From Bacillota bacterium (lineage in GTDB: Bacteria > Bacillota > Ch66 > Ch109), in contig JBMNLH010000001.1 in the NCBI GenBank assembly GCA_050952625.1, positions 81,056-145,055 of the forward strand: a stretch of DNA of 64,000 bases, in the 5' to 3' direction. Under the pieces are notes generated by a model. The model was not told the DNA's origin and did no database searches. It saw only the letters and a program-made list of their open reading frames with translations. Below are positions 39,463 through 62,721 of this stretch, piece by piece (position 1 is the stretch's first letter; each line of letters opens with the position of its first letter). The position numbers and the translations under genes are program-made.

Positions 39463-39463
39463 G

Positions 39464-39925: not shown

Positions 39926-39970
39926 GAACGAAGAATTAGGGGTTAAGAAGACAGGGAGGAGGCTTAAGCG

Positions 39971-40804: not shown

Positions 40805-40816
40805 CGGGGCGATAGC

Positions 40817-42950: not shown

Positions 42951-42953
42951 CTG

Positions 42954-46312: not shown

Positions 46313-46368
46313 TATTAGGGTGATCGGTTAACTTGTCATTGCAACTTCTATCAAGGAGGTTAAAAGAA

Positions 46369-47229
46369 ATGGGTTTTCTAAAGGATTTAGGCAGTCTCAC
46401 CGGCAGCATTGCAGGGGTGGTTTTGTCTACTCCAGTGACTTTGGCTGGTGGTTTTTTTGATAGTGATACCTTAAAGGAGGCGGCTCGCGGGATACACTAT
46501 GTTACCGCCAGTACTGGTTCCTTAATCGGTCAAACCGTCAGTGGCGGTCTGGATGTGGTGGAAGGAGTTTTAACTAGGAATGACAGGATAAGTCAGCAGG
46601 GTCTTGATGAGGTTGGTGATTCTTTTAAAACTGTTATCAATGGGGTAATTGGTGGTACCGCTAGTCTCTTGGATAATAGTGGTAAAGTAATTACTGGGGT
46701 ATTTGAGGGTGATACGGCCACCGCAATGCAAGGAGCTAAAAATCTTGCTAAATTTGGCATAATTACGGCCATCGGAATTGGGCTGGCTGATGCGATTGGG
46801 ATTGTTGATGTAAATGGGAATGAGACGGTAGCCCACGCTCAAGTACCTAGTAGTTTTAGTTATGATCAAGATGATGCTGTTTTGGATTATTCAGATATTG
46901 GTGAACCGCATGGGCTAGTACCGGACGTTCCGGTTGATGACATTCCTGGAGTTGATAATGGTATGGCTCATCCATCCGCTACGGAGGTATTAATTGATCT
47001 GGGTTGCCAGGATGGAACGGAGCATGTCGTGGATCCGCCCCGGGATCCGGGGATGGTCCAGGCATTTTTAACGGAGCATGGATATACTGAGACTCCTGAT
47101 GGTTACGAGGTCCATCACATTATTCCTCTGTCCGAAGGTGGAGCCGACCATCCGGCTAACATGGTATTAGTTTTGGAAGAAGAACATGATCAGATTACGG
47201 CGGCCCACCAGAGGTTTTATCAATGGTAA
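46369..47229 (+). CDS. Hypothetical protein with a Gly-zipper-rich N-terminal region and a C-terminal HNH-type nuclease motif
   Basis: The ATG at 46369 follows an AAGGAGG RBS. The C-terminus EVHHIIPLSEGGADHPANMVLVLEEEHDQITAAH fits the HNH HH-N-H pattern. The N-terminus has GxxxG-like runs (ITAIGIGLADAIGI). Confidence 0.5.
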   Translation: MGFLKDLGSLTGSIAGVVLSTPVTLAGGFFDSDTLKEAARGIHYVTASTGSLIGQTVSGGLDVVEGVLTRNDRISQQGLDEVGDSFKTVINGVIGGTASLLDNSGKVITGVFEGDTATAMQGAKNLAKFGIITAIGIGLADAIGIVDVNGNETVAHAQVPSSFSYDQDDAVLDYSDIGEPHGLVPDVPVDDIPGVDNGMAHPSATEVLIDLGCQDGTEHVVDPPRDPGMVQAFLTEHGYTETPDGYEVHHIIPLSEGGADHPANMVLVLEEEHDQITAAHQRFYQW

Positions 47230-47438
47230 TTAAGGTTTAACTTGAGATGGTTTCTAGTTATATTTAAAGCATACTAGTTAAGTCGGTTTAAAAAGTTAAC
47301 CATTGATATTCTTTAAAAATTAGAAGGGAAATGGATGAATATGTCGAATTTCCAGTATACAGTATTGATATGGTCGAATAACTAGTAGGTATTGCGAAAC
47401 AACTTAATTATTGGGATTTAGCGTAGAACGGAGGCCTA

Positions 47439-49151: not shown

Positions 49152-49205
49152 GTGACCTGAAATTCTAAAAGTGATCAAAGCAGGCAAAATTTTTTTGTCT
49201 AGATT

Positions 49206-50492
49206 ATGAGGTGGAATGTGGCTAGAGTTCTCATTTCAGGCATAGGTACTGGCCAGCTTAATGGTCAGGATGATTATGGGCTTGAACACCGAAGAAAATA
49301 CCGAACAGCAACTTATCTTATTGATCAGAAAAAATATGAAACAGAGTTTATAGCCAGTGCATTAATAGAACATTACCAAATTGAAAAGGTGTTTCTTGTT
49401 GGTACCGTAAAATCAATGTGGGAAAATGTATATGAGTATTTTGCTGGTGCTAACCTGGATGAAGAATATTATTTCCATTTGGTTGAAGCAATTGAAAAAT
49501 CAAATTATTTAGATCAATGCTTTGACATGGACTATCTTGGCAACGTGAACGAAGCAATGAACTGTTTTCTTAAGTCGAGTGACTCACGTTGTTTTTTAAT
49601 TAAGTACGGCTTGAATGAAGAGGAAATTATCTATAATTTCGGGATATTTCAGGATATCGCGGAGTTGTTGGAAAGTGGAGACGAGGTGTTTCTGGACATA
49701 ACTCATTCTTTTCGGTCATTGGCTCTATTTCAATACACAATGGTCAATTACATAGACAATTTGTCACACAAAAACATTGAGGTTAAGGGCGTGTTTTACG
49801 GCATGCTCGAAACTGCTCGGGAGATGCAGGGCATTACACCGGTGGTTAATCTTAAAACAGTGTATGAATTAAGCAATTGGGTAAAAGCCATTCATGAGTT
49901 AAAGAGTTACGGAAATGGTTATATAGTATCGGATTTATTAAGAGATTATGATAAACGACTAGCTAACAAGATCAAAATGTTTTCGGACCTGGTTAATTTA
50001 AACTACCTGGCTGGGGTAAAAAACCAAGTGGACAATCTGTCGAGATTAAACTTTGAACACATAAATGGGCCGGGCAGTATGGTGGCAGAGTATCTAAATC
50101 GTTATGTTAACCGGTTCGCGTCAATCAGAAATGAGTGGGAGTTCCAGTTTGAAATGGCAAAGTGGTATTTTGAAAATAAACGGTATGCTACGGGTTATAT
50201 TGCTTTGATAGAATCGATATTAACTCGAATTTGCGAATTGTTAGCTTTAGATCCTAAAATTAAAAACAATAGAGATGAAGCGAAAAATATTCTCTATAAT
50301 AACCGATCAGGTGCTAATTTGAGAGAGGTCAGGTATAAGTTCGATGCGATTAATAGAATCCGTAAGAATGTGGCGCATGTCCTTGATGATCGGGACGAAA
50401 GGAATTATTTGACGGATGTGCGGCAGTCAGCTTATTACATCCGGAGTTTAGAAGGATTATTAAAGCGTCTGTCGGCTGATGATTTAAGGTGA
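49206..50492 (+). CDS. csx1: Csx1-family CARF-HEPN ribonuclease (paralog 2)
   Basis: CARF with VFLDITHSFRSLALF and a HEPN Rx4H motif (INRIRKNVAHVLD), at 428 aa. The start may instead be the GTG at 49221. Confidence 0.75.
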   Translation: MRWNVARVLISGIGTGQLNGQDDYGLEHRRKYRTATYLIDQKKYETEFIASALIEHYQIEKVFLVGTVKSMWENVYEYFAGANLDEEYYFHLVEAIEKSNYLDQCFDMDYLGNVNEAMNCFLKSSDSRCFLIKYGLNEEEIIYNFGIFQDIAELLESGDEVFLDITHSFRSLALFQYTMVNYIDNLSHKNIEVKGVFYGMLETAREMQGITPVVNLKTVYELSNWVKAIHELKSYGNGYIVSDLLRDYDKRLANKIKMFSDLVNLNYLAGVKNQVDNLSRLNFEHINGPGSMVAEYLNRYVNRFASIRNEWEFQFEMAKWYFENKRYATGYIALIESILTRICELLALDPKIKNNRDEAKNILYNNRSGANLREVRYKFDAINRIRKNVAHVLDDRDERNYLTDVRQSAYYIRSLEGLLKRLSADDLR

Positions 50493-50927: not shown

Positions 50928-51917
50928 ATGCCGGATCTTAACCAATTAATAGAGGCATCGGCGATTCAGTGTAAAACATTTAATTGTACTGTGCTAACTC
51001 CGCTGTTCCTGCATGGTTGGCAGGAGACAGTGGTGACTGGCCACGGGAGACCAGTAAATAGGCCGGTCAGCGCAGAGTTCCGAATCCCCTCAATGAAAGG
51101 GGTATTGCGTTACTGGTGGCGGACCTTACAACCACTTAAACTTCAAGCTTTGCAGCAAAAGGAACAAGAATTGTTTGGCGGAACTAGCGGTGATAAAGGA
51201 CAAAGATCCCCTTTATTGCTGAAAGTCAGCATATTGGATAGAGGTCCAAGCTCAGAAAATATGAACACATCATCCCTGTGTCCGCATAAAGGTGGCATGC
51301 CATCACTGGCCCTGCCTGCGGACCGAGAGTTTGCTTTTGAGCTTGCAGTGCATCAGCGCAATGCCGCGAGATTATCTGAATACGAAGCAATATGTCAATT
51401 CATGTTTCTCTTGGCTGGTTTCGGACAAAGGTCTCGTCGGGGAGCGGGGTCGCTTCAGGTTGAAGGGCTATGTTGGCAAAACATTAAGGAGTATCAAAAC
51501 TCTTTGCGGGAAACTTTGCAATCCCTAAATTGCGCGAATGATTTTGAGTTTCCAAATGGTAATACGGGCGGATGTTTGCTACAACGCAAACGACGGGAGT
51601 CAACGGAGGCGAGGGGGGCTTTTCACCCGATTTTGCAGCGGGTCTGGGTTGGATCCGATTCTCGGACTGCAGAAGAGGCTAGACGCCAAATCAGTAATGC
51701 CGGCCATCTAGCTAATCCTAGTGGAAAAGCCCAGTATTTAGGCAATGTAGGGGGCAAAGGGATTGCTCGTTTAGCTTCGCCTCTTTTGTGTACGGTTAGA
51801 AAAATCGGAGAAGCCTACTGCCCCATTGTGAGTGAAGTCAGCAGCCCGCATCTAGGGAAAAACGTATACATACAACGACGAAACGAGTTTTTAGAGGCTC
51901 TGGGGGTGAAGGTGTGA
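50928..51917 (+). CDS. cmr1: Cmr1 (Cas7-group RAMP) of the III-B module
   Basis: TVLTPLFLHGW...IPSMKGVLRYWWRTL and a G-rich loop GFGQRSRRGAGSL, as the first gene of the cmr operon. Confidence 0.7.
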   Translation: MPDLNQLIEASAIQCKTFNCTVLTPLFLHGWQETVVTGHGRPVNRPVSAEFRIPSMKGVLRYWWRTLQPLKLQALQQKEQELFGGTSGDKGQRSPLLLKVSILDRGPSSENMNTSSLCPHKGGMPSLALPADREFAFELAVHQRNAARLSEYEAICQFMFLLAGFGQRSRRGAGSLQVEGLCWQNIKEYQNSLRETLQSLNCANDFEFPNGNTGGCLLQRKRRESTEARGAFHPILQRVWVGSDSRTAEEARRQISNAGHLANPSGKAQYLGNVGGKGIARLASPLLCTVRKIGEAYCPIVSEVSSPHLGKNVYIQRRNEFLEALGVKV

Positions 51918-53659
51918 GTGAGGTCGGCAATTTGCTGGTTTTTAGCGTAGGCCCAGTTCAGAGTTTTATTGCCTCGGCCAGGAAGATTGAGGATTTATGG
52001 AGCGGGAGTTACATTCTTTCCCATCTAGCTGAACAAGCCATGAGCGTTATCTTGGAACAGGCGGAAGCTAAACAAGTTAAGGCAGAAATGATTTATCCTC
52101 CGATGAAATCATCAACCGGTCCGCAGCATCAGCAAGCTGGAAACCGGGTAGCTCATATTGAAGTAGCGTCACAGCCTAACCGGTTTATTTGTTGGTTGGA
52201 AGCAGACAGTCAAACGGTATCAGTAATAGCTCGACAGGCAGAAAAAAAGGTCCGGGACAGTCTGGTTGACCTGGGCGAATACGCCTTGCGCCGCGTTTTC
52301 CCTAAAGATGCTAATCGGGATTATATGTTGGACCTGCACCGGCAGCAGGTGGATAACCTGCTGGAAGTTTACTGGGCCACGGAGCCGTTTGCTCTGACTG
52401 ATGACTATAATCAAGCTCGAAACCAGGTGGAAAAGCGGTTGGCGGCGGTAAAAAACGCCCGTCCCTATCATCCCTATCGGCAGCAGGGATTGGTGTGTAC
52501 CCTCTGCGGGGAACAGCAGGCCTTAATTTCCCGATGTTTGCCTGATCAAGAATGGATTACGTACGCTCTCATGAAAGAAACATTGGCCGGTACTTGGAAT
52601 AAACGGCATGATCAGTTTAAAGCCCCGCTGGAGTTAGATGCGGATGACCAGAAGGTGGGGCGGATAAAAGACAACGAGGGTTTGTGCGGCATTTGTCTGA
52701 GCAAACGGCTAGCTCGGGATTACTTTAAAGATAAGTACCAGGCCCCCAATGCCTTTGCGCCTTTCCCTTCGACCCAGGATATCACCGGTGGCAGCAAGTA
52801 TTACGCCATTTTAATGATGGACGGGGACGACATGGGTAAGTGGGTTTCCGGGCAAAAGAAAAACCCGCCAGTAAAAGTAGATATGCAGTATCAGCAGGAT
52901 TTGAGCAAAAAATTGGAGGAGTTTGCCCTCACCTCAGTTCCTAAATTGGTGAATGAGTTTGAAGGTAAACTCATTTATGCCGGGGGAGACGATGTCTTGG
53001 CTTTTGTCCCGGTCCGACACGCCCTGAACTTAGCCCGTTCACTGCGCCTGGCTTTCAGCGATCCCCAAAAAGGGTTAGACCCGGAGGCCACTGCTTCGAT
53101 CGGGGTGGTGGTGGTTCACGCCAAAGCTCCGCTGGCAATGGCCTTGGAGTATGCCCGGCAAATGGAAAGCAAGGCCAAAGCCTATCGGCACGCTAATGGT
53201 CGGGCCAAAGACGCACTGGGATTAGCGGTGATCACCCATAGCGGCGAGATTCGGGAAGCTATATTACCTTGGGCAATGGATGGCCAGCGATATACTGGGG
53301 AAAAAGCCCAATGTTCAATTGGTTATTTGCTGGCTTTGTTTCAGTTGGTAGAGACTGATCTCTCGGTCAGCTTCATTGAGCATTTTGCCCAGGCTTTTTT
53401 ACCGCTGCTCGGGGCGGATTTGAAAGGCCAGCGCAAGTTTAAAGTCTTAGACGAACCAGAGTTAAACCAAAAACTGCTGTGTAGTGAGATGCACCGGGTA
53501 TTGGAGCGGTCAAAAAAAGAAGACTCACGGCGGCAGGATTTGGCTAAGCAGGCGCAAATCATGATTCAACTCCATGAGCTAATGCCTTCTGGCCTGCAAT
53601 TCATCCATCTGTTAGAAATGGCGCGGTTCTTTAAGCGTACCGGAGGTGATAAGTCATGA
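51914..53659 (+). CDS. cmr2: Cmr2/Cas10, a minimal HD-less form with a Zn finger and GGDD cyclase palm
   Basis: 581 aa with no HD motif. A treble-clef CxxC…CxxC (VCTLCGEQQ…GLCGICLSKR), YYAILMMDGDDMGKW, and the GGDD motif (LIYAGGDDVLAFVPV). Confidence 0.8.
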   Translation: MSEVGNLLVFSVGPVQSFIASARKIEDLWSGSYILSHLAEQAMSVILEQAEAKQVKAEMIYPPMKSSTGPQHQQAGNRVAHIEVASQPNRFICWLEADSQTVSVIARQAEKKVRDSLVDLGEYALRRVFPKDANRDYMLDLHRQQVDNLLEVYWATEPFALTDDYNQARNQVEKRLAAVKNARPYHPYRQQGLVCTLCGEQQALISRCLPDQEWITYALMKETLAGTWNKRHDQFKAPLELDADDQKVGRIKDNEGLCGICLSKRLARDYFKDKYQAPNAFAPFPSTQDITGGSKYYAILMMDGDDMGKWVSGQKKNPPVKVDMQYQQDLSKKLEEFALTSVPKLVNEFEGKLIYAGGDDVLAFVPVRHALNLARSLRLAFSDPQKGLDPEATASIGVVVVHAKAPLAMALEYARQMESKAKAYRHANGRAKDALGLAVITHSGEIREAILPWAMDGQRYTGEKAQCSIGYLLALFQLVETDLSVSFIEHFAQAFLPLLGADLKGQRKFKVLDEPELNQKLLCSEMHRVLERSKKEDSRRQDLAKQAQIMIQLHELMPSGLQFIHLLEMARFFKRTGGDKS

Positions 53660-54795
53660 AACAGCTTTTTATGCAACCAGTAGATACCTTCTTTTTCCGT
53701 AATCAAAAGGATTTTACCCCCGGGGTGAATTCGATGGCTGCTTCAGTTTTTCCGCCCCGCCCGGGAACGGTCTACGGAGCTTTGCGCAGTGCTTATATCA
53801 ACCAATACAGCACTTTCGAGCAGTTTCGTACCGGGTGTGAGGGCCAGGTTAAAGAGTGGATGGGAACCCCGGTCGAACCGGGTCGGTTTCGGCTGCGCGG
53901 GTGTTTTCTTCACGATCAACAGCAGCCGATCTTACCGTTGCCTCTGGATTACCAAGTTGTCGAAACTGAGCATACGGGCGAAGCAGCCGAAATAGCCTAT
54001 CCGCTGAAACTGACCTTAGACGTTGTTCCCGCTTCTGATGGACGTCAGTACCGACTCTACGGGGTTCGGGATGAAAAAAGCGGCTCCAGCGCAGGAGCTT
54101 ATCTCCCGTTGTCAGACTGGAAAAAAGCATTGCTTGAGCCGTCAAGCGTACATATTTATCGAAGCAGCCACTGGATGATCCAAGAGGACAAGCTCGGAAT
54201 CGCCCGGGATTGGGCCACCCGAACCGCTAGAGAGGGCATGCTCTATCAAATTAAAACAAACCGTTTTATTGAAGCGAAAGAACCGGCCCGAAGCCCGGGC
54301 TTGTTAGCGGTCTGTACGGATGCTCCGGATTTTTCCGAGATTTCCTTGGTCCGGCTGGGGGGACGGAATCGTCCCTGGGCACTTAAATCCATACCGGACG
54401 AGTTTGGGATGTTTAAAGCCAAAGAGGAACGGTTAATTGAAGAACGGATTGCCAGCAGCCAAATTGCCCGTTTGATACTGTTGACCCCAGCCATTTGGCG
54501 GGAAGATTCGTCGTTCTATCAACAGCAAGCTGGAGTTTTTCAACTGCGGCCGGGCCTCTCCTTCCCTGTTTTGGCCGAAGCAATCGGCCGGCCAGTATTG
54601 GTCGGGGGATGGGACATTGTCCGGAATGCGCCGAAACCAAGGATTCAGGCGGTCCCAGCCGGCACGGTTCTCTATCTGCGAGTATCGAAAGAACAGGCCT
54701 CAGCTTTGGTCCAAGGCTTGAAAGAAACGATGGTTAGTGATGAGTTGGCTTACGAAGGTTATGGCTGGGCAGTTTGCGGACCAGTCAAATTATAA
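53656..54795 (+). CDS. cmr3: Cmr3 (Cas5-group RAMP)
   Basis: The N-terminus LFMQPVDTFFFRNQKDFTPG...PRPGTVYGALRSAY is the Cmr3 hallmark. Confidence 0.75.
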   Translation: MKQLFMQPVDTFFFRNQKDFTPGVNSMAASVFPPRPGTVYGALRSAYINQYSTFEQFRTGCEGQVKEWMGTPVEPGRFRLRGCFLHDQQQPILPLPLDYQVVETEHTGEAAEIAYPLKLTLDVVPASDGRQYRLYGVRDEKSGSSAGAYLPLSDWKKALLEPSSVHIYRSSHWMIQEDKLGIARDWATRTAREGMLYQIKTNRFIEAKEPARSPGLLAVCTDAPDFSEISLVRLGGRNRPWALKSIPDEFGMFKAKEERLIEERIASSQIARLILLTPAIWREDSSFYQQQAGVFQLRPGLSFPVLAEAIGRPVLVGGWDIVRNAPKPRIQAVPAGTVLYLRVSKEQASALVQGLKETMVSDELAYEGYGWAVCGPVKL

Positions 54796-54807
54796 GGGGG
54801 TAGGAAT

Positions 54808-55710
54808 ATGTTTAACCTTAAGAAAATGCTATTTTTGCACGCTATTACTTCAGTTCATGCCGGCAGCGGAAGTGAACTGGGTTTAGTGGATTTGCCGATC
54901 CAGCGGGAAAAACACACCGGTTATCCGAAAATTGAAAGCTCTTCCCTGAAAGGGGCGGTCAGAGCCACGGTTAGTGCGGTTGTCAACAGCGATGTTAAAT
55001 CCCCTGAGGATAAAGAGATGATTGAGGTGGTCTTTGGTAAAGAGGGCGATGAGAAGAAGAACAATGCGCAGGCCGGAGCAATTTCCCTGTCGGATGCGCG
55101 GCTTCTGCTTTTCCCCGTGCGTTCGCTACGCGGCGTGTTTGCCTGGGTTACTTGTCCGCTGGTGCTTAAACGGTACAATCAAGAACTAAAACTATACTGC
55201 CCTGACCAACCGCTGTTGCCGATTCCAGAAACAAAAACCGCGGCCGGAGAGGCGATTATCGTTAATCCTCGAGAAACTCAGAAACAGGTGGTGCTTGAGG
55301 AATACACGTATGAAGTAAAGGTGGATGACGCCTGCCGGAAATTGGCAGAATACTTACAAGAAAAGGTTTTTCCTGGATTAGATAATGGAATTAGGGAACG
55401 GCTGTTAGTCCTGCCAGATGATGATTTTACGGATTTTGTGACCTTATCGACCGAGGTTAATGCCCGCATTCGGATAGACCCCGAGACCGGTACCGTTAAA
55501 GATGGGGCCCTCTGGTATGAGGAGAATGTTCCCCCAGAGAGCGTTTTTTACAGCTTCTGTTTTATTGGCCAGGGCCGCTTAACCGGCCAGGAGAAAAAAG
55601 CAGAAGAAATCTGGCAGTACCTCAAGCGGGATGATATATTTCCAGAGGTCTTCCAACTGGGAGGCAACAGCACCCTGGGCAAAGGCATTTTGCGTCGAAT
55701 CTGGCGTTAA
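54808..55710 (+). CDS. cmr4: Cmr4 (Cas7 backbone RAMP)
   Basis: AGSGSELGLVDLPIQREKHTGYPKIESSSLKGAVRA and a C-terminal G-rich loop GGNSTLGKGILRRIW. Confidence 0.85.
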   Translation: MFNLKKMLFLHAITSVHAGSGSELGLVDLPIQREKHTGYPKIESSSLKGAVRATVSAVVNSDVKSPEDKEMIEVVFGKEGDEKKNNAQAGAISLSDARLLLFPVRSLRGVFAWVTCPLVLKRYNQELKLYCPDQPLLPIPETKTAAGEAIIVNPRETQKQVVLEEYTYEVKVDDACRKLAEYLQEKVFPGLDNGIRERLLVLPDDDFTDFVTLSTEVNARIRIDPETGTVKDGALWYEENVPPESVFYSFCFIGQGRLTGQEKKAEEIWQYLKRDDIFPEVFQLGGNSTLGKGILRRIWR

Positions 55711-55734
55711 TTTACGGAATTAGGGGGGCGGACA

Positions 55735-56196
55735 ATGAGCAAGGAAAAAGCAAAGGCAAAAGCAAAAGAAAAAGCTGCCGCTACGCGGGTGGGCATTGAA
55801 AACGGCCGGGCTGCTTATGCCTTTCAAAAGATTAACGATTACGTGCAGGATAATATTAATAATGAAAAGGGGCTGAAGGAGTACCGTTCCTATCTGAAAA
55901 AACTTCCGGCCATGATCCAGGTAAATGGGTTAGGCCAAACCCTGGCCTTCTGTTTTGCCAAAGGAGGACAATATCAAGTTATTTACGGTCAGCTTGAGGA
56001 GTGGATTCGGCAGCAGCAATCGACCTTGATCAAGCAGTATGATAATAAACCAGCCAAGAAGTTTGTGGAACTAGTCGTGATGATGGATAGCCGCGATTAC
56101 CGAATCATAACCAATGAGGTTATTGCGGTGCTTGATTGGATGCGGCGTTTCGCTGACGGGCTGATTCGCCCGCTGGTTAACGAGCAGGAGGGTTAA
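55735..56196 (+). CDS. cmr5: Cmr5 small subunit
   Basis: A 153 aa helical protein between cmr4 and cmr6 (YRSYLKKLPAMIQVNGLGQTLAFCFAKGG). Confidence 0.7.
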   Translation: MSKEKAKAKAKEKAAATRVGIENGRAAYAFQKINDYVQDNINNEKGLKEYRSYLKKLPAMIQVNGLGQTLAFCFAKGGQYQVIYGQLEEWIRQQQSTLIKQYDNKPAKKFVELVVMMDSRDYRIITNEVIAVLDWMRRFADGLIRPLVNEQEG

Positions 56197-56211
56197 GGGG
56201 GTGGAGGATTC

Positions 56212-57438
56212 GTGTACTATCATCCCAAAGATACGCAAGACATCTTTGAAAAGAAAATTAGTAATTTGAACGAGAGCGTAGATAATTTATGGTACCGAGT
56301 GCATTATTTTCAACAGAACTCGTTGCATGATAAAAGTCAAAATAGATTGGTTAAACTGCCGAAGAATTTGCGTTTAAATCGGCCCACCCAGTCGTTTCTT
56401 AACCAGCGATTGCAGCAACGGGCCCAGTTGTTAAGCCATCTGCAGGCCAGTTGTGAGTTGGCCGGGCTGAAGGGATTTTTACAAGGAAGACTAATCCACG
56501 GACTGGGCGGGGCGCATGTCCGGGAAACCTCGCTGACGCTGCATCCCCTCTACGGTCTGCCTTATATCCCGGGTTCGAGTCTGAAGGGAGCGGTCCGCAA
56601 CTGGGTTTTACAGGCTTTTTTTCAGGGTGACGAAGATTCCTTGAAGAAGGAAACTCATTTAGATCAAACGAAGGCTGAAATACGGACAATCTTTTTTGAC
56701 TTGTTTGGAAGCGAGGAACAAGCCGGATTGGTTGAGTTTTTTGATGCCTTTGTTGAGTCTGATTTTTCTCTGCAACCGGATATTTTGACTGTTCATTTTC
56801 CTAAGTATTACAGTGGCGAGAAATCGCCGACCGATGATCAGAATCCCAATCCGGTCGATTTCTATACCATAAATTGTTCTTATCTACAGTTTTTCTTGGC
56901 GGTTAAGAAGGGGCGATCAACCCGGTCCAGCTTAAATAGTGCTCAATTGATGGAATTAGCCGTAGCTTGGACGCAAAAAGCTTTGAGCGAGTTGGGGATT
57001 GGCTCCAAGACTTCAGCGGGCTATGGCTATTTTTCCAAGTTTGAGCAAATTAAGGTTAATAACCTTCGCTCAATTACTGCTGTCAATCAGTCTAGTCGAA
57101 AAAACACTGACAACAAGTCAGCGGATAGTTCAGTAAAAGGCCCGGCCCCGGCCAAGGACAAAAATAGTCCGGTTGGTCAAGTGGAAAGTCAACCAATGGA
57201 TCTAGGACCCGGGCTAATATTGGTCCGGCTAATTAACCAGTTGGCTGAGAAAAGTGAGCAGGACCGCAACCGCAGCAAGGGAGAAGTCTACCAACAGGTA
57301 CTGGCTTTGGCTGAGCAAGGGGAACTGGAACCAGCCCGATCGCTTAAAGCGTATTGGGAAAGGTCCGGTGATTGGAAAAAACCGAATAAAAAGCAGCAGC
57401 AGAAGATAGATGCGATAAGAAAGATATTAGGAGAATAA
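56212..57438 (+). CDS. cmr6: Cmr6 (Cas7-group RAMP)
   Basis: GLPYIPGSSLKGAVRNW G-loop and a C-terminal GIGSKTSAGYGYF. Confidence 0.8.
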   Translation: MYYHPKDTQDIFEKKISNLNESVDNLWYRVHYFQQNSLHDKSQNRLVKLPKNLRLNRPTQSFLNQRLQQRAQLLSHLQASCELAGLKGFLQGRLIHGLGGAHVRETSLTLHPLYGLPYIPGSSLKGAVRNWVLQAFFQGDEDSLKKETHLDQTKAEIRTIFFDLFGSEEQAGLVEFFDAFVESDFSLQPDILTVHFPKYYSGEKSPTDDQNPNPVDFYTINCSYLQFFLAVKKGRSTRSSLNSAQLMELAVAWTQKALSELGIGSKTSAGYGYFSKFEQIKVNNLRSITAVNQSSRKNTDNKSADSSVKGPAPAKDKNSPVGQVESQPMDLGPGLILVRLINQLAEKSEQDRNRSKGEVYQQVLALAEQGELEPARSLKAYWERSGDWKKPNKKQQQKIDAIRKILGE

Positions 57439-58409
57439 TGATAACAACAAAGCCTTATTCTATTACCTATTCCCGTTTTCGCTTCACCCTTCGGGCAGAA
57501 GAAGATGCTCGCTTACCGGCTTATTTGGGCTCAACCTTGAGGGGAGCTATGGGCCGGGCTTTCAGGCGAGGGAGTTGTCTAAGTTTGCGCAGCCACTGTT
57601 CAGACTGTATGTTCTCCTCACGCTGCGCCTACGCCTATATTTTTGAAACCTCACAGGCTTCAACGATAAACAAAGGAGCCGGGGTTGAGCATTTTTATAT
57701 TCCTCACCCCTTTGTTATCGAGCCGCCCCTGGACGGAAAGACCATTTTCAAAGCAGGAGAGGAACTGACATTCGATCTGCTGCTGATCGGCAGCGGATTA
57801 CACTTTTTCCCTTTTTTCATTGCCGCCTTTGCCCAGGCAGCGGCGGAGGGTCTGGGGGCAGGACGTCATCGTTTCCGCTTGGAAAACGTGGCCCAATGGT
57901 TGGATGATGAGTTGGTTTTACTTTGGAATGGGGGTAATAGGCTGCTTGGAAATCCAGTCGCTCAGGTCTTAACCAATGATCTTGAGGCTGGAATTGACTG
58001 TAGGGAAATTACCCTGCACCTGCAAACCCCGCTGCGGATAAAAGAACGCGGTCACCTGGTGAATGAAATAAGCTTTCCTTTGTTAATCCGCAGTATTTTT
58101 CGCCGCCTGGATTTATTGGGTCGCGTTCATGGCGATGGTCCGCTAATTCTGCCGTATACCGATTATCTTCAACAGGCGGCGGCAGTTAGTGCGGTGCCAG
58201 AAGCTAATTCATTATACTGGACAGAATGGCGGCGTTATTCCAATCGCCAAAAGGTTCACATGAATATGGGAGGATACTGTGGCAGTATCCGGTATCAGGG
58301 TGATCTCGGCCCTTTTCTTCCTTACCTTAAAATGGCAGCCGTCCTGCACCTGGGCAAAGGAACAGTGTATGGCCTGGGCAAAATCGCCATTGAGGTTACC
58401 GAGAGGTGA
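57438..58409 (+). CDS. cas6: Cas6 (second copy, associated with the Cmr module)
   Basis: GSTLRGAMGRAF, a Cys cluster CLSLRSHCSDCMFSSRC, and the G-rich loop GGYCGSIRYQGDLGPFLPYLKMAAVLHLGKGTVYGLGKI. It is paralogous to the Cas6 at 42954. Confidence 0.8.
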   Translation: MITTKPYSITYSRFRFTLRAEEDARLPAYLGSTLRGAMGRAFRRGSCLSLRSHCSDCMFSSRCAYAYIFETSQASTINKGAGVEHFYIPHPFVIEPPLDGKTIFKAGEELTFDLLLIGSGLHFFPFFIAAFAQAAAEGLGAGRHRFRLENVAQWLDDELVLLWNGGNRLLGNPVAQVLTNDLEAGIDCREITLHLQTPLRIKERGHLVNEISFPLLIRSIFRRLDLLGRVHGDGPLILPYTDYLQQAAAVSAVPEANSLYWTEWRRYSNRQKVHMNMGGYCGSIRYQGDLGPFLPYLKMAAVLHLGKGTVYGLGKIAIEVTER

Positions 58410-58590: not shown

Positions 58591-58926
58591 ATGGCTAATT
58601 TGAGGGGGATGTCTTGTCACGCGTCCATCACTTCTGTCCACGGCGGCCAACCGGGCAAAAATTTTGGGGTTCGGATTAAAGTGCTTATCCCAGAAGGATT
58701 AGTCAAGGAACCAAGTCGGTCCCCAACCCACCACCTTGGAAATTGTGCTGATGAATCAATTACCCCTTCCCATACCACTTTCCTAAATAAAAGCGATGGC
58801 AGCCAGAAAAACAGTTTTCCAGCGGCCAATAATATAAGGGGTTATGGGCAAGAACATTTGGATGATCTTGACTATGATGATAACGATGATGACGTGTTAT
58901 TTTCTGATTACATTAAGAATATCTAG
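58591..58926 (+). CDS. Hypothetical acidic low-complexity ORF; may not be coding
   Basis: 111 aa with an Asp-rich C-terminus and no recognisable family. Confidence 0.2.
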   Translation: MANLRGMSCHASITSVHGGQPGKNFGVRIKVLIPEGLVKEPSRSPTHHLGNCADESITPSHTTFLNKSDGSQKNSFPAANNIRGYGQEHLDDLDYDDNDDDVLFSDYIKNI

Positions 58927-59013
58927 CAAGGACCCAAGCAGGCCCTAAATGCTATAAAAACTAATTAAAAGCCAATTAAAATAGATTATCTTTGAATTAA
59001 GGAGATCGTTTAT

Positions 59014-59703
59014 ATGGTAGATCAAAACCTTTCACGGGTAGTTCAACAGCATTATCTTGCCCAGCGGTTGGCTCGACAAAGTACCGAGAAGATAGCACGT
59101 GTGCTTGATGATTTAATGGATAATTCCACCAGCGGTCAAAGTATGCTTAGCTGGGATTTTTTAGCAAAAGCCAAACAGCAGGTAGAGGACTGTTTACATA
59201 ACGGCCAACAGGCAGTAAAAATAGCAGTGCTGGTTCCAGTGGGTTTGTTTGGATTAACCCAGGGGTTTGATATGCCAGACCTGGACATATCTTTGCTCGG
59301 GATCGGAAACCACCGATTTTTTCTTTGTCATAGTGCTATCGGCTTGGCGGTTTTACGCTACTTCTATCGACGGTGGGTTGAATCGGAGGATGGGCGATTT
59401 TCTTCTCGCCTGGGACACAAGGTGGCCGGGGTAGCACTTGGCAGTTGTGCCTTGGGTGTAGGTTTGCATTTAGCGATTGATGTTTTTCAGCCGAAATCAG
59501 TCGTCTTCCCGTTTTTTGGCTCTTTAATCAATGGAACGTTAGTTGACGATAATATTTGGCTGTTAGGCAATTCTTTGTGGGCCTTTAAAATAAGTCATGA
59601 TGTTTTTGCCTTGTCCCTGGCGGATGAGTTAACTCAGGCCAGGGAATGGGTGCAGAATCATTTTGAAGGGTGGAATGTCCGTGCAGTTTTTAATCGGGAT
59701 TGA
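59014..59703 (+). CDS. Hypothetical membrane protein (3-4 TM helices with conserved His residues; possibly a YdjM-like membrane hydrolase)
   Basis: A ~70 aa soluble N-terminus, then TM helices (IAVLVPVGLFGLTQGF; GNHRFFLCHSAIGLAVL; VAGVALGSCALGVGLHLAIDVF). The end overlaps the start of the next ORF. Confidence 0.4.
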   Translation: MVDQNLSRVVQQHYLAQRLARQSTEKIARVLDDLMDNSTSGQSMLSWDFLAKAKQQVEDCLHNGQQAVKIAVLVPVGLFGLTQGFDMPDLDISLLGIGNHRFFLCHSAIGLAVLRYFYRRWVESEDGRFSSRLGHKVAGVALGSCALGVGLHLAIDVFQPKSVVFPFFGSLINGTLVDDNIWLLGNSLWAFKISHDVFALSLADELTQAREWVQNHFEGWNVRAVFNRD

Positions 59704-60634
59704 CCTGATGTCCCGCGAAGAAAAGATTGCCCTACTGGCCCAGTTAAAAGCAATTACTGGGTTTAATCTAATCAAGCAAGGGTCCAGCGAGTTCGTGTTG
59801 AAAGCAAAAAACGGACTGTTTTGGGCCGGAAAAAAATTGGCCGATCTGACCGGTCAAGTTGAAGCGGTTGAAAAACTGGAAAAATGGAATAGCCAAAGCA
59901 ATTGGAACCCAAATTTGCTCCAGAAGGAGATGGCCTGTCAGCAGAAAGAACTGGAATTATTAAGTGATCGGGGAGTCGAGGTCCGCCTCCGGCAAGAATT
60001 AGCCCGGTTGGCCGGAGTTGCTCCGGAGGCTGATCTAGAAACGATTGCCCAACATTTGGTGAAGCGTCTGGCTGAGCTGTATCAGTTGGACGAATGGCAC
60101 TTTCAAAATGATACGGCCCTGGAGGAAAAAGTCTATTCTGCCTGCCTGGAAGAACAAATAAATATTTTGAAACAGAAACTCAATTCGCTGGATCGGGAAG
60201 AAGAAATTCAGATGCAAGAAGCCCTTGAACAACAAATCAACCAATTGAGCCGGGCGGAACAGGAGGCGATAAAGCAGGCCATGGGATTGGATGAGCTTTC
60301 CGCGGCGTCAATGATGACTCTGTTGAAAACCACTTCGGGAGTGGCCTTAGCTCAAGTCATTTTATCCGGGACCGGGTTTGGCGTCTATCTTTTTCTAACG
60401 ACCATGATCAAAGCCCTATCGTTAATGTTGGGAGTTACTTTTTCTTTTGGCACTTATACGGCAGCCACGACCGCGATGGCCTTTTTATTGTCTTTTCCTT
60501 TTCTTCTCCTGGTGGTTGCCTTATCCGGCGGCTTTATCTGGCATAAAACGTCAGTTAAAATAGATGAGCAATTGACGAAAATCGTCTTTCTGGCGGGTCG
60601 GGCAAAAGTGGCTTATATTGAGACGGCAGGTTAA
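59663..60634 (+). CDS. Hypothetical protein with a ~230 aa predicted coiled-coil cytoplasmic domain plus two C-terminal TM helices
   Basis: The N-terminal region is rich in heptad-like E/Q/L/K stretches. The C-terminus reads VALAQVILSGTGFGVYLFLTTMIKALSLMLGVTF...AFLLSFPFLLLVVALSGGFIW. The start is ambiguous: TTG 59663, or ATG 59675 or 59708. Confidence 0.45.
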   Translation: MKGGMSVQFLIGIDLMSREEKIALLAQLKAITGFNLIKQGSSEFVLKAKNGLFWAGKKLADLTGQVEAVEKLEKWNSQSNWNPNLLQKEMACQQKELELLSDRGVEVRLRQELARLAGVAPEADLETIAQHLVKRLAELYQLDEWHFQNDTALEEKVYSACLEEQINILKQKLNSLDREEEIQMQEALEQQINQLSRAEQEAIKQAMGLDELSAASMMTLLKTTSGVALAQVILSGTGFGVYLFLTTMIKALSLMLGVTFSFGTYTAATTAMAFLLSFPFLLLVVALSGGFIWHKTSVKIDEQLTKIVFLAGRAKVAYIETAG

Positions 60635-60639
60635 TCATA

Positions 60640-61035
60640 TCTGGCGAATTAATATGTTTGAAGGTATTTAGGGATTAGGCTATAATTTTATTGTAAATTA
60701 TTTAATGCTCTAAAATTGAGACTGCAAGTATATCAAGAACATTTATATTATAGGATATTATACATATTATATATAGAGTAATAGTTGAGGTGTTTTGTAT
60801 AAGTGTGACTTGCATTTAAATCTACCGCTAACCTGTTTGGACTGTCAAAAACGCGGGAGGTTAGCGATATTGAGAAATAATGAGTATTTGGAAGAAAAAA
60901 GGGGGTATAAGCAGTTATTTTTGTTTTGAATAAAATGGTAATAGGTGTTTTTAAGTTTGATTTATGATGGTTTTTTGGAGGTTAGCGGAACGCTACCTCG
61001 CAGCCCAGAATTATCAAGGCCTCTGGACAGCCGCT
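60640..61035 (+). promoter_or_regulatory. CRISPR array 2 leader (AT-rich), homologous to the array 1 leader including the hairpin at 60825-60867
   Basis: cgctaacctgtttgg...gggaggttagcg, and ggaggttagcggaacgctacctcgcagcccagaattatcaaggcctctggacagccgct immediately before the first repeat. Confidence 0.6.
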
Positions 61036-62446
61036 GTGAGAATCATTGACCCGATTAGAGGGGATTGCGACCTGATGTACCAATCGACAGTCGTTCATGC
61101 GCATGTGAGAATCATTGACCCGATTAGAGGGGATTGCGACCTTAATACACAGGTGATTCAGTCCGCAATGTCATGTGAGAATCATTGACCCGATTAGAGG
61201 GGATTGCGACCATTTATGAGCGCCTTCAGGATCACTAATCTTCCTCAATGTGTGAGAATCATTGACCCGATTAGAGGGGATTGCGACCTTTAATAATCCT
61301 TATTTACTCACTATTTACTGTTTCAGTGAGAATCATTGACCCGATTAGAGGGGATTGCGACTTTCCTGACAGCAAGTACTCCCAATACATTATCAGTCGT
61401 GAGAATCATTGACCCGATTAGAGGGGATTGCGACTAATCCGCCTGTAAGGCCCTAAGTTATTCCCACGTGAGAATCATTGACCCGATTAGAGGGGATTGC
61501 GACTCTTCGATTCTTGTCCCTGCTTAATCCTTGTTGTACAGTGAGAATCATTGACCCGATTAGAGGGGATTGCGACATCTTATCCACCGCTTCGCATCGA
61601 GCATTCTACTGCGTGAGAATCATTGACCCGATTAGAGGGGATTGCGACACATTCTGTCACTGAGCAACCGAGTCCATTAATTACGTGAGAATCATTGACC
61701 CGATTAGAGGGGATTGCGACCTTTACTTTGATCTGACTCGCTCCGGCACTATCTTCGTGAGAATCATTGACCCGATTAGAGGGGATTGCGACCTGTCATC
61801 CAGCTCCGGCAATCGTACACTGAGTGAGAATCATTGACCCGATTAGAGGGGATTGCGACAAAACACGTCTTCCTCGTGATCTCAATCAGTGAGAATCATT
61901 GACCCGATTAGAGGGGATTGCGACTTAAGACATCTGTCTATAGATATACATTGCCTTATGTGAGAATCATTGACCCGATTAGAGGGGATTGCGACTTTCA
62001 GCTTTTGTTCAAGGTTTTGGATTGTATCTTTTAAGTGAGAATCATTGACCCGATTAGAGGGGATTGCGACCTTGGATAATAAAGGAGCCGTAATCCGTAA
62101 CTACTGTAAGTGAGAATCATTGACCCGATTAGAGGGGATTGCGACTTCCAGGCCCCGAGAGGGGCTATTTTTTGCGCGCTTTGTGAGAATCATTGACCCG
62201 ATTAGAGGGGATTGCGACTTCAGTAGTTTGTTTCCACGCTCCCTCATACCATTTTTGTAAGAATTATTGACCCGATCAGAGGGGATTGCGACGTCATTTG
62301 TTCGGTCTACCCCTTTCTATTTCATCCTCTAAGTGAGAATGATTGACCCGACCAGAGGGGATTGCGACTATCCTGTGCCGCCGATGATAGCAGCTTCTAC
62401 AGGCTTCTCCGTGAGAATTATTGACCCGACCAGAGGGGATTGCGAC
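61036..62446 (+). CRISPR. CRISPR array 2: 20 repeats of 36 bp; 19 spacers of 29-42 bp
   Basis: Repeats 1-17 read gtgagaatcattgacccgattagaggggattgcgac. The last three are variants (gtaagaattattgacccgatcag…, gtgagaatgattgacccgaccag…, gtgagaattattgacccgaccag…). Repeat starts include 61036, 61105, 61175 … 62411. Confidence 0.95.
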
Positions 62447-62721
62447 TAGGGAAGCTGAAAAGAAGGGGACAGGATGATGGCCAAAACGGAATGCTTCGGG
62501 AATCATTTGACGCTACAGCTGCCGCTTATGTCCAAGCTTTACCAATAGAGTTTGGTATTGAAGCGACATATCTGGTCATATCTTCCTGATCATGTTACAA
62601 TATTCATATGTTACAATATTTTTATAGTCGAATTGTAATATTTTTAAATGTTGTAAGATGCAGTGTATTATTTAGCGTATTACCCGGGTTAATTTCTAAT
62701 CGAATTTCCAATCGGTCGGGA

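What the first reader, a model, noticed from the sequence alone, without database searches (positions are those of the whole stretch)
58591..60634. Uncharacterised membrane-protein module between cmr-cas6 and array 2: a coiled-coil protein with two C-terminal TM helices plus a His-containing polytopic membrane protein
These genes sit inside the CRISPR locus on the same strand, with overlapping reading frames that indicate an operon. None matches a known Cas family. The 59663 product has a long helical cytoplasmic domain and a C-terminal TM hairpin. The 59014 product has 3-4 TM helices with conserved His residues. Membrane-associated effectors of type III signalling have recently been described (Cam1, Csx23, CorA-associated). 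This pair could be an undescribed membrane-targeting accessory module, or an unrelated cargo insertion.
Basis: inference. Interest (0 to 1): 0.65.

Follow-up and report, generated by a model that had tools for sequence, protein, structure and literature searches.

The report
CRISPR-linked membrane hydrolase and sensor-like gene pair
Between the cmr-cas6 genes and a CRISPR array sits a conserved, undescribed two-gene cassette: a predicted membrane metal-hydrolase and a membrane-anchored helical protein distantly related to the phage sensor JukA, found beside CRISPR or cyclic-oligoadenylate genes in about half of informative loci.

Summary
ORF-A (59014-59703, 229 aa) and ORF-B (most likely 59681-60634, 317 aa) are real genes with overlapping reading frames. 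They match no Cas, Pfam, NCBIfam or PADLOC family above threshold. The third ORF (58591-58926) is not an independent gene. It is the 3' remnant of a 267-aa HIRAN-domain gene that is intact upstream of the identical A-B pair in another strain.

A is a divergent member of the YdjM/DUF457 predicted membrane metal-hydrolase superfamily. Its Asp/His motifs are invariant. B has a helical soluble domain and a highly conserved C-terminal hydrophobic region. B is remotely homologous to JukA/YaaW (hhalign 97%). B-like modules elsewhere are fused to NERD, PLD, dynamin and DUF4145 domains.

A is followed directly by B in 93 of 107 loci, most often with a 23-nt overlap. Of 25 sequence clusters with at least 10 kb of flank, 13 have a CRISPR array, type III gene or CARF gene nearby. 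The others sit next to dynamin-like, McrBC-like, Avs2 or unrelated genes.

Neither protein has a detectable cyclic-nucleotide sensor domain. The best reading is a modular sensor-plus-membrane-enzyme defence cassette that is preferentially linked to type III CRISPR loci. Direct activation by cOA is unproven. I rate it a new variant of a known kind.

The parts
58591..58926 (+). 3' remnant (111 codons) of a HIRAN-domain gene. It keeps the C-terminal part of the HIRAN domain and an acidic tail (...DDLDYDDNDDDVLFSDYIKNI). It is probably a pseudogene fragment.
   Evidence: Window 58603-58923 matches residues 161-267 of the 267-aa protein P0287 at 98% identity. Nothing upstream of that in the window matches residues 1-160. 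The intact 267-aa gene carries Pfam HIRAN and sits directly upstream of the identical A protein in L129. HIRAN genes lie 0-307 nt upstream of A in 5 clusters. The region is absent from the close relative L015.
59014..59703 (+). ORF-A, 229 aa. It has an N-terminal soluble helical region of about 65 aa, followed by a hydrophobic helical core with the invariant motifs PDxDIxxLGIGxHRxFLFHS and HLxxDxxQPKSVxFPFFGSLxxGTLVDDxxW. It is a divergent YdjM/DUF457-like predicted membrane metal-dependent hydrolase.
   Evidence: The database search found 171 homologues at 40-60% identity; alignment A1 is. Of 34 family members, 29 hit Pfam YdjM PF04307, best E-value 1.1e-6. The motifs align with E. coli YdjM. 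AF2 gives pLDDT 77.8 and an all-helical model. The gene has an AAGGAG SD.
59681..60634 (+). ORF-B, 317 aa from GTG 59681 (the longest ORF starts at TTG 59663). It has a short N-terminal motif MxFLxGIxxMSREEKxxLLAQL, a helical soluble domain of about 200 aa, and then a highly conserved Gly/Thr/Ser-rich hydrophobic region (GFGAYLFLTTxxKAxSLLLGxTFSFGTYTAATS...) and a basic tail. It is a remote JukA/YaaW-like module.
   Evidence: Homologues are (449 representatives at E<=1e-3). AF2 gives pLDDT 63. Hydropathy is. hhalign against a YaaW/JukA alignment gives probability 97% and E 8.6e-11. Distant relatives hit the PADLOC JukA model.
59681..59703 (+). 23-nt overlap between the end of A and the start of B. 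This implies translational coupling.
   Evidence: The same 23-nt overlap occurs in 14 of 50 clusters, and all 50 fall within -51 to +31 nt. SD-like GAAGGGTGG lies upstream of GTG 59681.
60635..61035 (+). AT-rich spacer and putative leader between the stop of B and the first repeat of array 2.
   Evidence: GC is 0.34. Promoter-like hexamers lie at 60658-60686 and 60742-60770.
61036..62470 (+). CRISPR array 2. It has about 20 repeats of GTGAGAATCATTGACCCGATTAGAGGGGATTGCGAC. The end coordinate is approximate because the last repeats are degenerate.
50928..58409 (+). Type III-B module, cmr1-cmr6 plus cas6, immediately upstream. Cmr2 (51914-53659) has GGDD and no HD domain.
   Evidence: Pfam hits are.
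47439..50492 (+). Two CARF proteins of the TM1812/DxTHG family (570 and 428 aa) with HEPN-like R-x4-6-H motifs. These are the locus's canonical cOA effectors. Homologues of the 570-aa protein lie next to A(-B) in five other clusters.

Best explanation
HIRAN(optional)-A-B is a compact, modular membrane defence cassette. It travels preferentially, but not exclusively, inside type III CRISPR/CARF neighbourhoods.

B is a membrane-anchored, JukA/YaaW-like sensor or adaptor. Its variable cytoplasmic helical domain detects an infection-associated cue, or docks a partner such as the acidic tail of the HIRAN protein or a CARF protein. Its invariant hydrophobic region couples to A.

A is the effector: a YdjM/DUF457-type, PLC-like metal-dependent hydrolase embedded in the membrane. 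The positive-inside rule places its Asp/His cluster at the outer-leaflet side. Once activated, A attacks a membrane phosphoester (a phospholipid or a lipid-linked substrate) and compromises the envelope, which blocks phage development.

In this window the cassette was recombined in between cas6 and the leader of array 2, and the HIRAN gene was truncated in the process. It most likely acts alongside the cOA-activated CARF-HEPN RNases, as a second co-inherited line of defence, rather than as a direct cOA receptor.

Shown: gene reality, conservation, coupling, remote homologies, genomic linkage and the recombination junction.
Inferred: complex formation, topology, enzymatic activity, substrate, trigger and the defence role.
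For: - Obligate pairing: A is followed by B in 93 of 107 loci, with a conserved overlap.
- A has eight invariant Asp/His residues arranged as in YdjM (PDxD...HRxFxHS...HLxxD). Pfam YdjM hits occur in 29 of 34 members, and there are weak Zn_dep_PLPC hits.
- B versus a YaaW/JukA alignment gives hhalign probability 97%. PADLOC JukA hits for 4 of 4 distant B-like proteins are.
- B-like modules are fused to NERD, PLDc_2/MkoB-like, dynamin GTPase and DUF4145 domains. This parallels the published 'conserved JukA sensor plus variable effector' pattern, which includes GTPase and phospholipase fusions (bioRxiv 10.1101/2022.09.17.508391).
- In B, the hydrophobic region is the most conserved part and the soluble domain is variable.
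- Distribution is sporadic: 37 loci among 185,579 species representatives, all of them MAGs.
- Neighbours are defence genes: type III, CARF (Csm6, Card1, APE2256, beta-CASP-CARF), Cas1-2, LeoA/LeoBC-like dynamins, McrBC-like, Avs2, SIR2, WYL.
- 13 of 25 well-flanked clusters are CRISPR-linked.
- The truncated HIRAN junction and three alternative arrangements around near-identical A genes show a modular, mobile cassette.
- No CARF, SAVED or other sensor domain was found.
Against: - No experiment supports a defence role.
- Most A members, including the window's (12.8 bits against a 29-bit cutoff), fall below Pfam's YdjM threshold. The YdjM family itself has no demonstrated activity.
- The AF2 models are of moderate (A) or low (B) confidence, and neither matches a solved hydrolase fold.
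- None of 128 B-like proteins hits Pfam PF03981. The hhalign match covers only 92 columns and includes a hydrophobic stretch that could inflate the score.
- Very tight, sometimes overlapping, linkage to CARF genes (L095, L050, L043, L011) argues for a closer tie to cOA signalling than simple island co-residence.
- Two of A's four putative TM helices are only weakly hydrophobic, so the topology and the outward-facing active site are uncertain.
Confidence: 0.45

Rival explanations
1. A-B is a genuine type III CRISPR ancillary effector. A Cas10 product (cOA or SAM-AMP) is sensed by a non-canonical fold in the soluble domain of B or the N-terminal domain of A. Alternatively, it is sensed by an adjacent CARF protein that docks on B. 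This switches on membrane damage by A-B, functionally like Cam1, Csx23, Cap1 or CorA.
For: - CARF genes lie within 3 kb in 8 of 25 well-flanked clusters. Some are operonic: the A and CARF genes overlap in L095, are 20 nt apart in L050, about 60-90 nt apart in L043 and 114 nt apart in L011.
- Arrays are within 10 kb in 10 of 25 clusters, and type III core genes in 5 of 25.
- Near-identical A genes stay inside CRISPR loci through three different rearrangements.
- Cmr2 here has the cyclase motif only: GGDD and no HD.
- Non-CARF sensors have precedent in the literature, for example Csx23, the Cam2 REC domain and CorA (PMC11229360).
Against: - 12 of 25 well-flanked clusters have no CRISPR or CARF feature within 10 kb.
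- The cassette also pairs with dynamin-like GTPases, McrBC-like genes and Avs2.
- Most of the linked CARF proteins carry their own effector domains: HEPN, Card1 nuclease or beta-CASP.
- A distant A homologue is found in a phage.
Confidence: 0.27
2. A is a membrane-bound phosphodiesterase that degrades cyclic oligoadenylates, acting as an off-switch or ring nuclease for type III signalling. B is its anchor or regulator. The phage homologue would then act as an anti-CRISPR.
For: - There is a weak relationship to the PLC/P1-nuclease-type metal phosphoesterase families.
- The cassette sits next to cOA-pathway genes, including Crn1-related APE2256 CARF proteins.
- An A-like gene is present in Moorella phage MTATph1.
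Against: - Charge distribution (positive-inside rule) places the conserved Asp/His loops on the side opposite the cytoplasm. This is inference only.
- Many loci lack any cOA pathway gene.
- Linkage to JukA-like, HIRAN and dynamin components is not explained by this model.
Confidence: 0.07
3. A-B is non-defence cargo: a membrane-maintenance or stress module, like SOS-regulated YdjM. It is simply carried in variable genomic islands where CRISPR loci also accumulate.
For: - The closest named family, YdjM, is an inner-membrane protein of unknown, possibly stress-related, function.
- Several loci are flanked by metabolic genes.
- The cassette was clearly joined to cmr-cas6 by recombination.
Against: - The family is extremely sporadic: 37 of 185,579 species representatives.
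- CRISPR arrays, type III core genes or CARF genes lie near 13 of 25 well-flanked clusters. By my rough estimate (inference, no control set run), that is 10-fold or more above what random placement would give.
- The cassette recurs beside unrelated defence systems.
- B-like modules are fused to NERD, PLD and dynamin domains.
- The soluble domain of B diverges rapidly while the hydrophobic region is invariant.
Confidence: 0.1

Closest known systems
YdjM / DUF457 family (Pfam PF04307; E. coli inner membrane protein YdjM), with a weaker link to Zn-dependent phospholipase C (PF00882)
   Same: ORF-A shares the motif series PD(I/L)D ... HRxFxHS ... HLxxD...P..V in the same order, inside hydrophobic helices. 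29 of 34 family members give YdjM HMM hits. A few members give weak Zn_dep_PLPC hits.
JukA (YaaW; Pfam Ubiq_cyt_C_chap PF03981 + DUF3944), sensor of the Juk anti-jumbo-phage system (bioRxiv 10.1101/2022.09.17.508391)
   Same: The similarity is collinear, from the helical 'ALEE..F' region through the Gly-rich hydrophobic C-terminus. hhalign gives probability 97% and E 8.6e-11 over 92 columns, and phmmer hits are collinear. The N-terminal motif resembles DUF3944; this rests on reading the sequences by eye. Both are a conserved module combined with variable effectors, including GTPase and phospholipase-type fusions, and are often near WYL regulators.
   Different: No B-like protein reaches Pfam PF03981. 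The window's B does not hit the PADLOC JukA model. B is longer and its C-terminus is more strongly hydrophobic, so it is probably a true membrane anchor. Its partner is a YdjM-like protein rather than JukB. It is linked to CRISPR and CARF genes, and it occurs in anaerobic Bacillota and other MAGs rather than Proteobacteria.
Membrane effectors of type III CRISPR signalling (Cam1, Cam2, Cam3, Csx23, Cap1, CorA)
   Same: They are encoded in type III loci, are membrane proteins, and presumably act on the envelope.
   Different: The known effectors carry, or are proposed to carry, a cytoplasmic sensor domain, except Cam3, which the authors suggest may be an accessory protein: CARF, CARF-like, REC, the Csx23 C-terminal domain or the CorA cytosolic domain. 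None is detectable in A or B. A has the motifs of an enzyme rather than only pore helices. The unit is two proteins, and half of its occurrences are outside CRISPR loci.
Eleos / dynamin-like LeoA-LeoBC defence system
   Same: B gives a weak partial hit to the PADLOC LeoBC model (E 8.8e-5, model positions 323-492). LeoA/LeoBC-like GTPase pairs lie directly upstream of A-B in several loci, and one B-like protein is fused to a dynamin GTPase.
   Different: B has no GTPase domain. The match covers only the helical and hydrophobic part. A has no counterpart in Eleos.

Membership tests
YdjM/DUF457 (PF04307), tested on ORF-A | Match to the family HMM above Pfam's gathering score | tested here: not met
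   The window protein scores 12.8 bits (E 0.085) against a cutoff of 29. Across the family, 29 of 34 members hit with best E 1.1e-6, and one (P0060) has a precomputed PF04307 hit. A is a remote relative, not a curated member.
YdjM/DUF457 (PF04307), tested on ORF-A | Conserved Asp/His motif series (PDxD ... HRGxTHS ... HxxxD) within hydrophobic helices | tested here: met
   D89, D91, H100, R101, H106, S107, H152 and D156 are invariant in 34 sequences. They align to the LPDID...GHRGFTHS...SHILAD motifs of E. coli YdjM.
YdjM/DUF457 (PF04307), tested on ORF-A | Polytopic inner-membrane topology | tested here: inconclusive
   Kyte-Doolittle analysis shows two strong hydrophobic helices (66-86, 136-159) and two weak ones. 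Family mean KD values are 0.65-1.37. The charge bias fits N-in with 4 TM helices. No dedicated predictor was available.
YdjM/DUF457 (PF04307), tested on ORF-A | Metal-dependent hydrolase activity | not testable with these tools
   This needs biochemistry. To my knowledge, and in the papers searched, the activity is also undemonstrated for the family itself.
Zn-dependent phospholipase C / P1 nuclease fold, tested on ORF-A | HMM match or structural similarity to solved PLC or P1 nuclease | tested here: not met
JukA/YaaW (PF03981 + DUF3944), tested on ORF-B | Match to Pfam PF03981 or the PADLOC JukA model | tested here: not met
   None of 128 B-like proteins hits PF03981 at E<=0.01, whereas E. 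coli YaaW scores 7.6e-16. The window's B does not hit PADLOC JukA. Four of four distant B-like fusion proteins do, at E 7e-4 to 9e-7.
JukA/YaaW (PF03981 + DUF3944), tested on ORF-B | Profile-profile homology | tested here: met
   hhalign of a 133-sequence B-domain alignment against a 6-sequence YaaW/JukA alignment gives probability 97.0% and E 8.6e-11, aligning B 175-276 with YaaW 113-205. The match is partial and includes a hydrophobic stretch. A single-sequence comparison was not significant.
JukA/YaaW (PF03981 + DUF3944), tested on ORF-B | Operonic pairing with a variable effector; defence-island context | tested here: met
   A-B are adjacent in 93 of 107 loci. B-like modules are fused to NERD, PLD, dynamin and DUF4145 domains. 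The JukA pattern is as described.
JukA/YaaW (PF03981 + DUF3944), tested on ORF-B | Relocalisation to the infection site and recruitment of the effector | not testable with these tools
   This needs microscopy in an infected host.
Type III CRISPR ancillary (cOA/SAM-AMP-activated) effectors | Encoded within or next to type III cas loci | tested here: inconclusive
   This holds for the window and for about half of informative clusters. 13 of 25 have an array, type III gene or CARF gene within 10 kb, and 12 of 25 have none.
Type III CRISPR ancillary (cOA/SAM-AMP-activated) effectors | A ligand-sensing domain (CARF, SAVED, or another demonstrated sensor) | tested here: not met
Type III CRISPR ancillary (cOA/SAM-AMP-activated) effectors | Activity dependent on the Cas10 cyclase product | not testable with these tools
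   This needs in vivo or in vitro assays. The adjacent Cmr2 does have GGDD and lacks HD.
Known Cas protein families | Match to any Cas family model | tested here: not met
   None of the three ORFs hits any Cas family, while all flanking cmr, cas6 and CARF genes are recognised.
Eleos LeoBC (dynamin-like) | Dynamin-type GTPase domain | tested here: not met
   There is only a partial LeoBC hit (E 8.8e-5, model positions 323-492 of 601) and no GTPase domain in B.

The most novel reading that the evidence does not exclude
The A-B complex is a new class of type III CRISPR ancillary effector. It would be a two-subunit membrane enzyme: a YdjM/DUF457-type metallo-hydrolase gated by a JukA-like subunit. 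It would be switched on by the Cas10 signal, either through a previously unknown nucleotide-binding fold in B or through docking of a neighbouring CARF protein. This would give the first function for the widespread YdjM/DUF457 superfamily. It would also link the Juk-type 'sensor at the membrane' logic to CRISPR signalling.
Probability: 0.22. Interest if true: 0.82.

Novelty: new variant of a known kind. Interest (0 to 1): 0.62.

Why it matters
If the cassette is a defence module, three things follow.

1. It adds an enzyme-type membrane effector to the repertoire linked to type III CRISPR loci. The known membrane effectors of these loci are pores or channels.
2. It gives a testable functional context for the YdjM/DUF457 superfamily, whose activity is unknown.
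3. It extends the JukA 'conserved sensor plus swappable effector' design to anaerobic Bacillota, to new effector types (YdjM-like, NERD, PLD, dynamin) and to CRISPR neighbourhoods.

The recurring, sometimes overlapping, linkage to CARF genes makes a concrete question testable: can cOA signalling be relayed to a partner that has no sensor domain of its own?

Tried and rejected
- A PDB sequence profile search for A gave only a chance SDR match.
- The third big-database search, using the B alignment, added almost nothing because the word index saturated.
- I first thought ORF0 might match the 111-aa ORF upstream of A in L001. There is no similarity. ORF0 turned out to be a HIRAN remnant.
- A literature hit of 'DUF457' in the Cap1 paper was a false lead. 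The term matched DUF4579, and Cap1 is unrelated to YdjM.
- Papers on CRISPR-linked genes, type III accessory families and new effector families describe no comparable pair in the passages I read. Their supplementary tables were not checked.
- hhalign of the A or B alignments against single E. coli YdjM or YaaW sequences was not significant. Only the alignment-versus-alignment test for B was.
- A Pfam enrichment scan of 142 neighbour ORFs showed dynamin-type GTPases as the most frequent families, and no Cas family in the top 25. Cas and CARF neighbours were then found with seed searches.
- The second neighbour batch (49 ORFs) was never scanned as a batch; ten selected neighbour ORFs were scanned individually.
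- The consensus promoter and terminator scan gave no clear promoter for A and no terminator after cas6. Whether A-B is co-transcribed with cmr-cas6 remains open.
Full report
**Observation**

The window carries a type III-B operon: cmr1-6 and cas6 at 50928-58409. It is preceded by two CARF proteins and followed by CRISPR array 2, whose first repeat is at 61036.

ORF-A (59014-59703, 229 aa) has a strong Shine-Dalgarno sequence (AAGGAG).

For ORF-B, the longest ORF starts at TTG 59663. Homologue N-termini (MLFLxGI...) and the NCBI gene call (317 aa) place the start at GTG 59681. B then overlaps the last 23 nt of A.

None of the three ORFs reaches threshold in Pfam, NCBIfam or PADLOC. All the flanking cas genes are recognised.

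B is helical, with strongly hydrophobic segments at 219-257 and 258-290. A has two strong and two weak hydrophobic helices and invariant histidines.

**The 58591 ORF is a gene remnant**

An exact-sequence look-up placed ORF0 in a 90% identity cluster that also contains 267-aa proteins. Window 58603-58923 matches residues 161-267 of the 267-aa protein P0287 at 98% identity. Nothing upstream in the window matches residues 1-160.

In contig L129 the intact 267-aa gene carries a Pfam HIRAN domain. It sits directly upstream of an A protein identical to the window's. That cassette lies downstream of csx19/RAMP-cas6-cas1-cas2 rather than cmr-cas6.

HIRAN-domain genes lie 0-307 nt upstream of A in five sequence clusters. 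Reading the sequences, the two HIRAN proteins I compared end in a similar acidic tail (...DD(V/D)LF(S/R)(D/N)Y(I/L)...).

The unit is therefore HIRAN(optional)-A-B. In the window its 5' end was lost at the junction with cas6.

A third arrangement exists in the close relative L015, whose A gene is 97.6% identical in DNA. There, A is preceded by a CRISPR repeat, an APE2256-family CARF protein and a Csm6.

**ORF-A**

The database search found 171 homologues at 40-60% identity. They are all unnamed and come mostly from Bacillota/Syntrophomonadaceae, Limnochordia, Ignavibacteria, Thermosipho and other MAGs.

The alignment shows two near-invariant blocks: PDxDIxxLGIGxHRxFLFHS and HLxxDxxQPKSVxFPFFGSLxxGTLVDDxxW.

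Taken individually, 29 of 34 members hit Pfam YdjM (PF04307, formerly DUF457, a predicted membrane-bound metal-dependent hydrolase). The best E-value is 1.1e-6, and a few members hit Zn-dependent phospholipase C weakly. The motifs line up with E. coli YdjM (LPDID...GHRGFTHS...SHILAD), although a profile-versus-single-sequence hhalign is not significant.

The AF2 model (pLDDT 77.8) is all-helical and matches no solved enzyme fold.

Lys/Arg counts per loop across the family favour an N-in topology. That would place the Asp/His loops on the outer side of the membrane. This is inference only.

I conclude that A is a remote YdjM-superfamily protein and is very likely a metal-binding enzyme. It is not a curated member of PF04307.

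**ORF-B**

The word-indexed search found only 14 relatives. An exhaustive profile search found 449 representatives at E<=1e-3, of which 86 were at E<=1e-30.

Many of these are longer proteins in which the B-like module is fused to other domains: NERD, PLDc_2 (MkoB-like), a dynamin GTPase or DUF4145.

Four of four such distant relatives hit the PADLOC JukA model. E. coli YaaW (which is JukA; Pfam PF03981 + DUF3944) gives collinear phmmer alignments to B-like proteins. An alignment-versus-alignment hhalign gives probability 97% and E 8.6e-11 over 92 columns, aligning B 175-276 with YaaW 113-205.

Against membership, none of 128 B-like proteins hits PF03981, and the window's B does not hit the JukA model. 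B's weak hit to LeoBC (E 8.8e-5) covers only helical and hydrophobic positions.

The most conserved part of B is the Gly/Thr/Ser-rich hydrophobic region. The soluble domain varies.

The JukA preprint describes a conserved sensor combined with variable effectors, fusions to GTPase and patatin-like phospholipase domains, and WYL-rich neighbourhoods. The B-like family shows the same pattern.

**Genomic linkage**

I collected 113 loci: 37 from GTDB species representatives (all MAGs, out of 185,579 species), 61 from metagenomes and the rest from exact look-ups. They form 64 clusters at 90% identity of A.

B immediately follows A in 93 of 107 loci that have room for it. Its start lies within -51 to +31 nt of A's stop in all 50 clusters measured, and the overlap is 23 nt in 14 of them.

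Features within 10 kb, among the 25 clusters with at least 10 kb of flank:

| Feature | Clusters (of 25) |
|---|---|
| True CRISPR array (repeats inspected) | 10 |
| Type III core genes | 5 |
| CARF gene within 3 kb | 8 |
| At least one of the above | 13 |

The CARF partners include TM1812/DxTHG-type CARF-HEPN proteins homologous to the window's 570-aa protein, Csm6, Card1, an MBL/beta-CASP-CARF fusion and APE2256 (Crn1-related) proteins. In some loci they are operonic with A or B (L095, L050, L043, L011).

From general knowledge, I would expect a random gene to lie this close to an array or CARF gene in only a few percent of cases. The enrichment is therefore an order of magnitude or more. 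That baseline is an estimate; no control set was run.

The other half of the loci show no CRISPR feature. Instead they carry:
- LeoA/LeoBC-like dynamin pairs directly upstream (L039, L042, L043, L050, L071)
- McrBC-like and helicase genes
- a UvrD/TPR giant protein
- SIR2 and TPR genes
- tandem-WYL regulators
- a TPR/PP2C/kinase/VWA operon
- ordinary metabolic genes

More distant A homologues, with different partner proteins, occur on Rhodothermus marinus plasmid pRMAR01, between cas1-cas2 and avs2, and in Moorella phage MTATph1.

**Interpretation**

The window's Cmr2 has GGDD and no HD domain, so the III-B module must act through signalling. However, the locus already encodes two CARF proteins with HEPN motifs.

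Neither A nor B has any recognisable nucleotide sensor. The cassette is modular: there is a recombination scar in the HIRAN gene and three alternative arrangements around near-identical A genes. It also co-occurs with several unrelated defence systems.

I therefore favour, at about 0.45, a self-contained sensor-plus-enzyme membrane cassette that is co-inherited with type III CRISPR loci, in which B is JukA-like and A is a YdjM-like hydrolase.

In that version, A-B is a true cOA-responsive membrane effector that works through a novel sensor fold or a CARF partner.

A ring-nuclease role (about 0.07) and non-defence cargo (about 0.1) are less likely.

**Novelty**

I found no description of this pair in the papers on CRISPR-linked genes, type III accessory families, new type III effectors or Juk that I searched or read. 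No model for either protein exists in Pfam, NCBIfam or PADLOC.

Both components relate only remotely to known families. I classify the cassette as a new variant of a known kind: a sensor-effector defence cassette and CRISPR-linked membrane module. All functional statements remain predictions.

Noticed in passing
window 37048-43882 and 44343-46109: A second type III module lies upstream. It has an 804-aa Cas10 with both HD and GGDD motifs, Csm4-like and RAMP genes, and its own Cas6. It is followed by array 1, which has about 24 repeats and begins near 44343, earlier than the TRF call at 44879. The window therefore holds two type III systems that share nearly the same repeat.
   Followed up: partly
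window 46333-47229: A 298-aa protein sits between array 1 and the CARF genes. It has a C-terminal HNH motif and a weak partial hit to the NCBIfam IscB model (E 7e-4). Its role is unknown. A segment similar to window 47215-47382, spanning the end of this gene and the downstream intergenic region, recurs next to a CRISPR repeat in L015.
   Followed up: no
window 47439-49151: The 570-aa CARF protein appears to have an N-terminal DxTHG CARF domain, a central RNSIAH HEPN-like motif and a second, Csa3-like CARF region near residues 458-520. Homologues of 410-603 aa lie next to A(-B) in L016, L050, L095/L094, L043 and L074/L035.
   Followed up: partly
P0204, P0222, P0231, P0241, P0252, P0226 (proteins): The B-like module is fused to NERD (N-terminal), a dynamin GTPase, a PLD/MkoB-like domain or DUF4145 in proteins of about 500-900 aa. 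A larger family of about 600-aa proteins has the B-like module at the N-terminus, followed by a coiled-coil region that resembles JetC/LmuB.
   Followed up: partly
L118 9725-10995 (Moorella phage MTATph1, OR602862.1 171286-172556): A 176-kb phage encodes a distant A homologue that keeps the Asp/His motifs. The next gene encodes a small protein whose sequence looks like a J-domain-like segment followed by a C-terminal TM helix (by eye; no domain search was run on it). This could be a phage counter-defence, superinfection-exclusion or lysis function.
   Followed up: partly
L117 8417-9851 (Rhodothermus marinus DSM 4252 plasmid pRMAR01): A cultured organism carries a distant A homologue (234 aa). 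It is preceded by an unrelated 241-aa protein with one hydrophobic segment, and it lies between cas1-cas2 and avs2. This would be a tractable strain for experiments.
   Followed up: partly
L050 3443-9832; L095 1-4484: A variant arrangement runs: B-like gene, then an 899-aa protein with two WYL-type regulator repeats (judged from sequence), then A, then a CARF protein of 580-600 aa, then the cmr genes. A and the CARF gene are 20 nt apart in L050 and overlap in L095.
   Followed up: partly
L086 342-9964: A divergent A, with no B, is the last gene of a tightly packed same-strand operon. The operon encodes TPR proteins, a PP2C phosphatase, a Ser/Thr kinase and a VWA protein. It looks like a different conflict or signalling system that uses the same membrane enzyme.
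   Followed up: no
L116 1-8932 (same contig as L043): Upstream of the dynamin pair and A-B are two large unannotated proteins (560 and 610 aa) and an OmpA-domain protein. Downstream are an APE2256 CARF protein, a second CARF protein, a TPR/AEP-TOTE protein and cas1-cas2. This is a dense defence island.
   Followed up: no
L001 9538-10041: The P0007-type cassette has a different 167-aa upstream gene whose end overlaps the start of A. It has an acidic, aromatic-rich C-terminal tail reminiscent of the HIRAN proteins' acidic tail. The tail may be a shared docking peptide.
   Followed up: no
window 1793-1921 and 15183-15290: There are short tandem repeats with periods of 36 nt and 15/45 nt, far from the finding. 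They were not examined.
   Followed up: no
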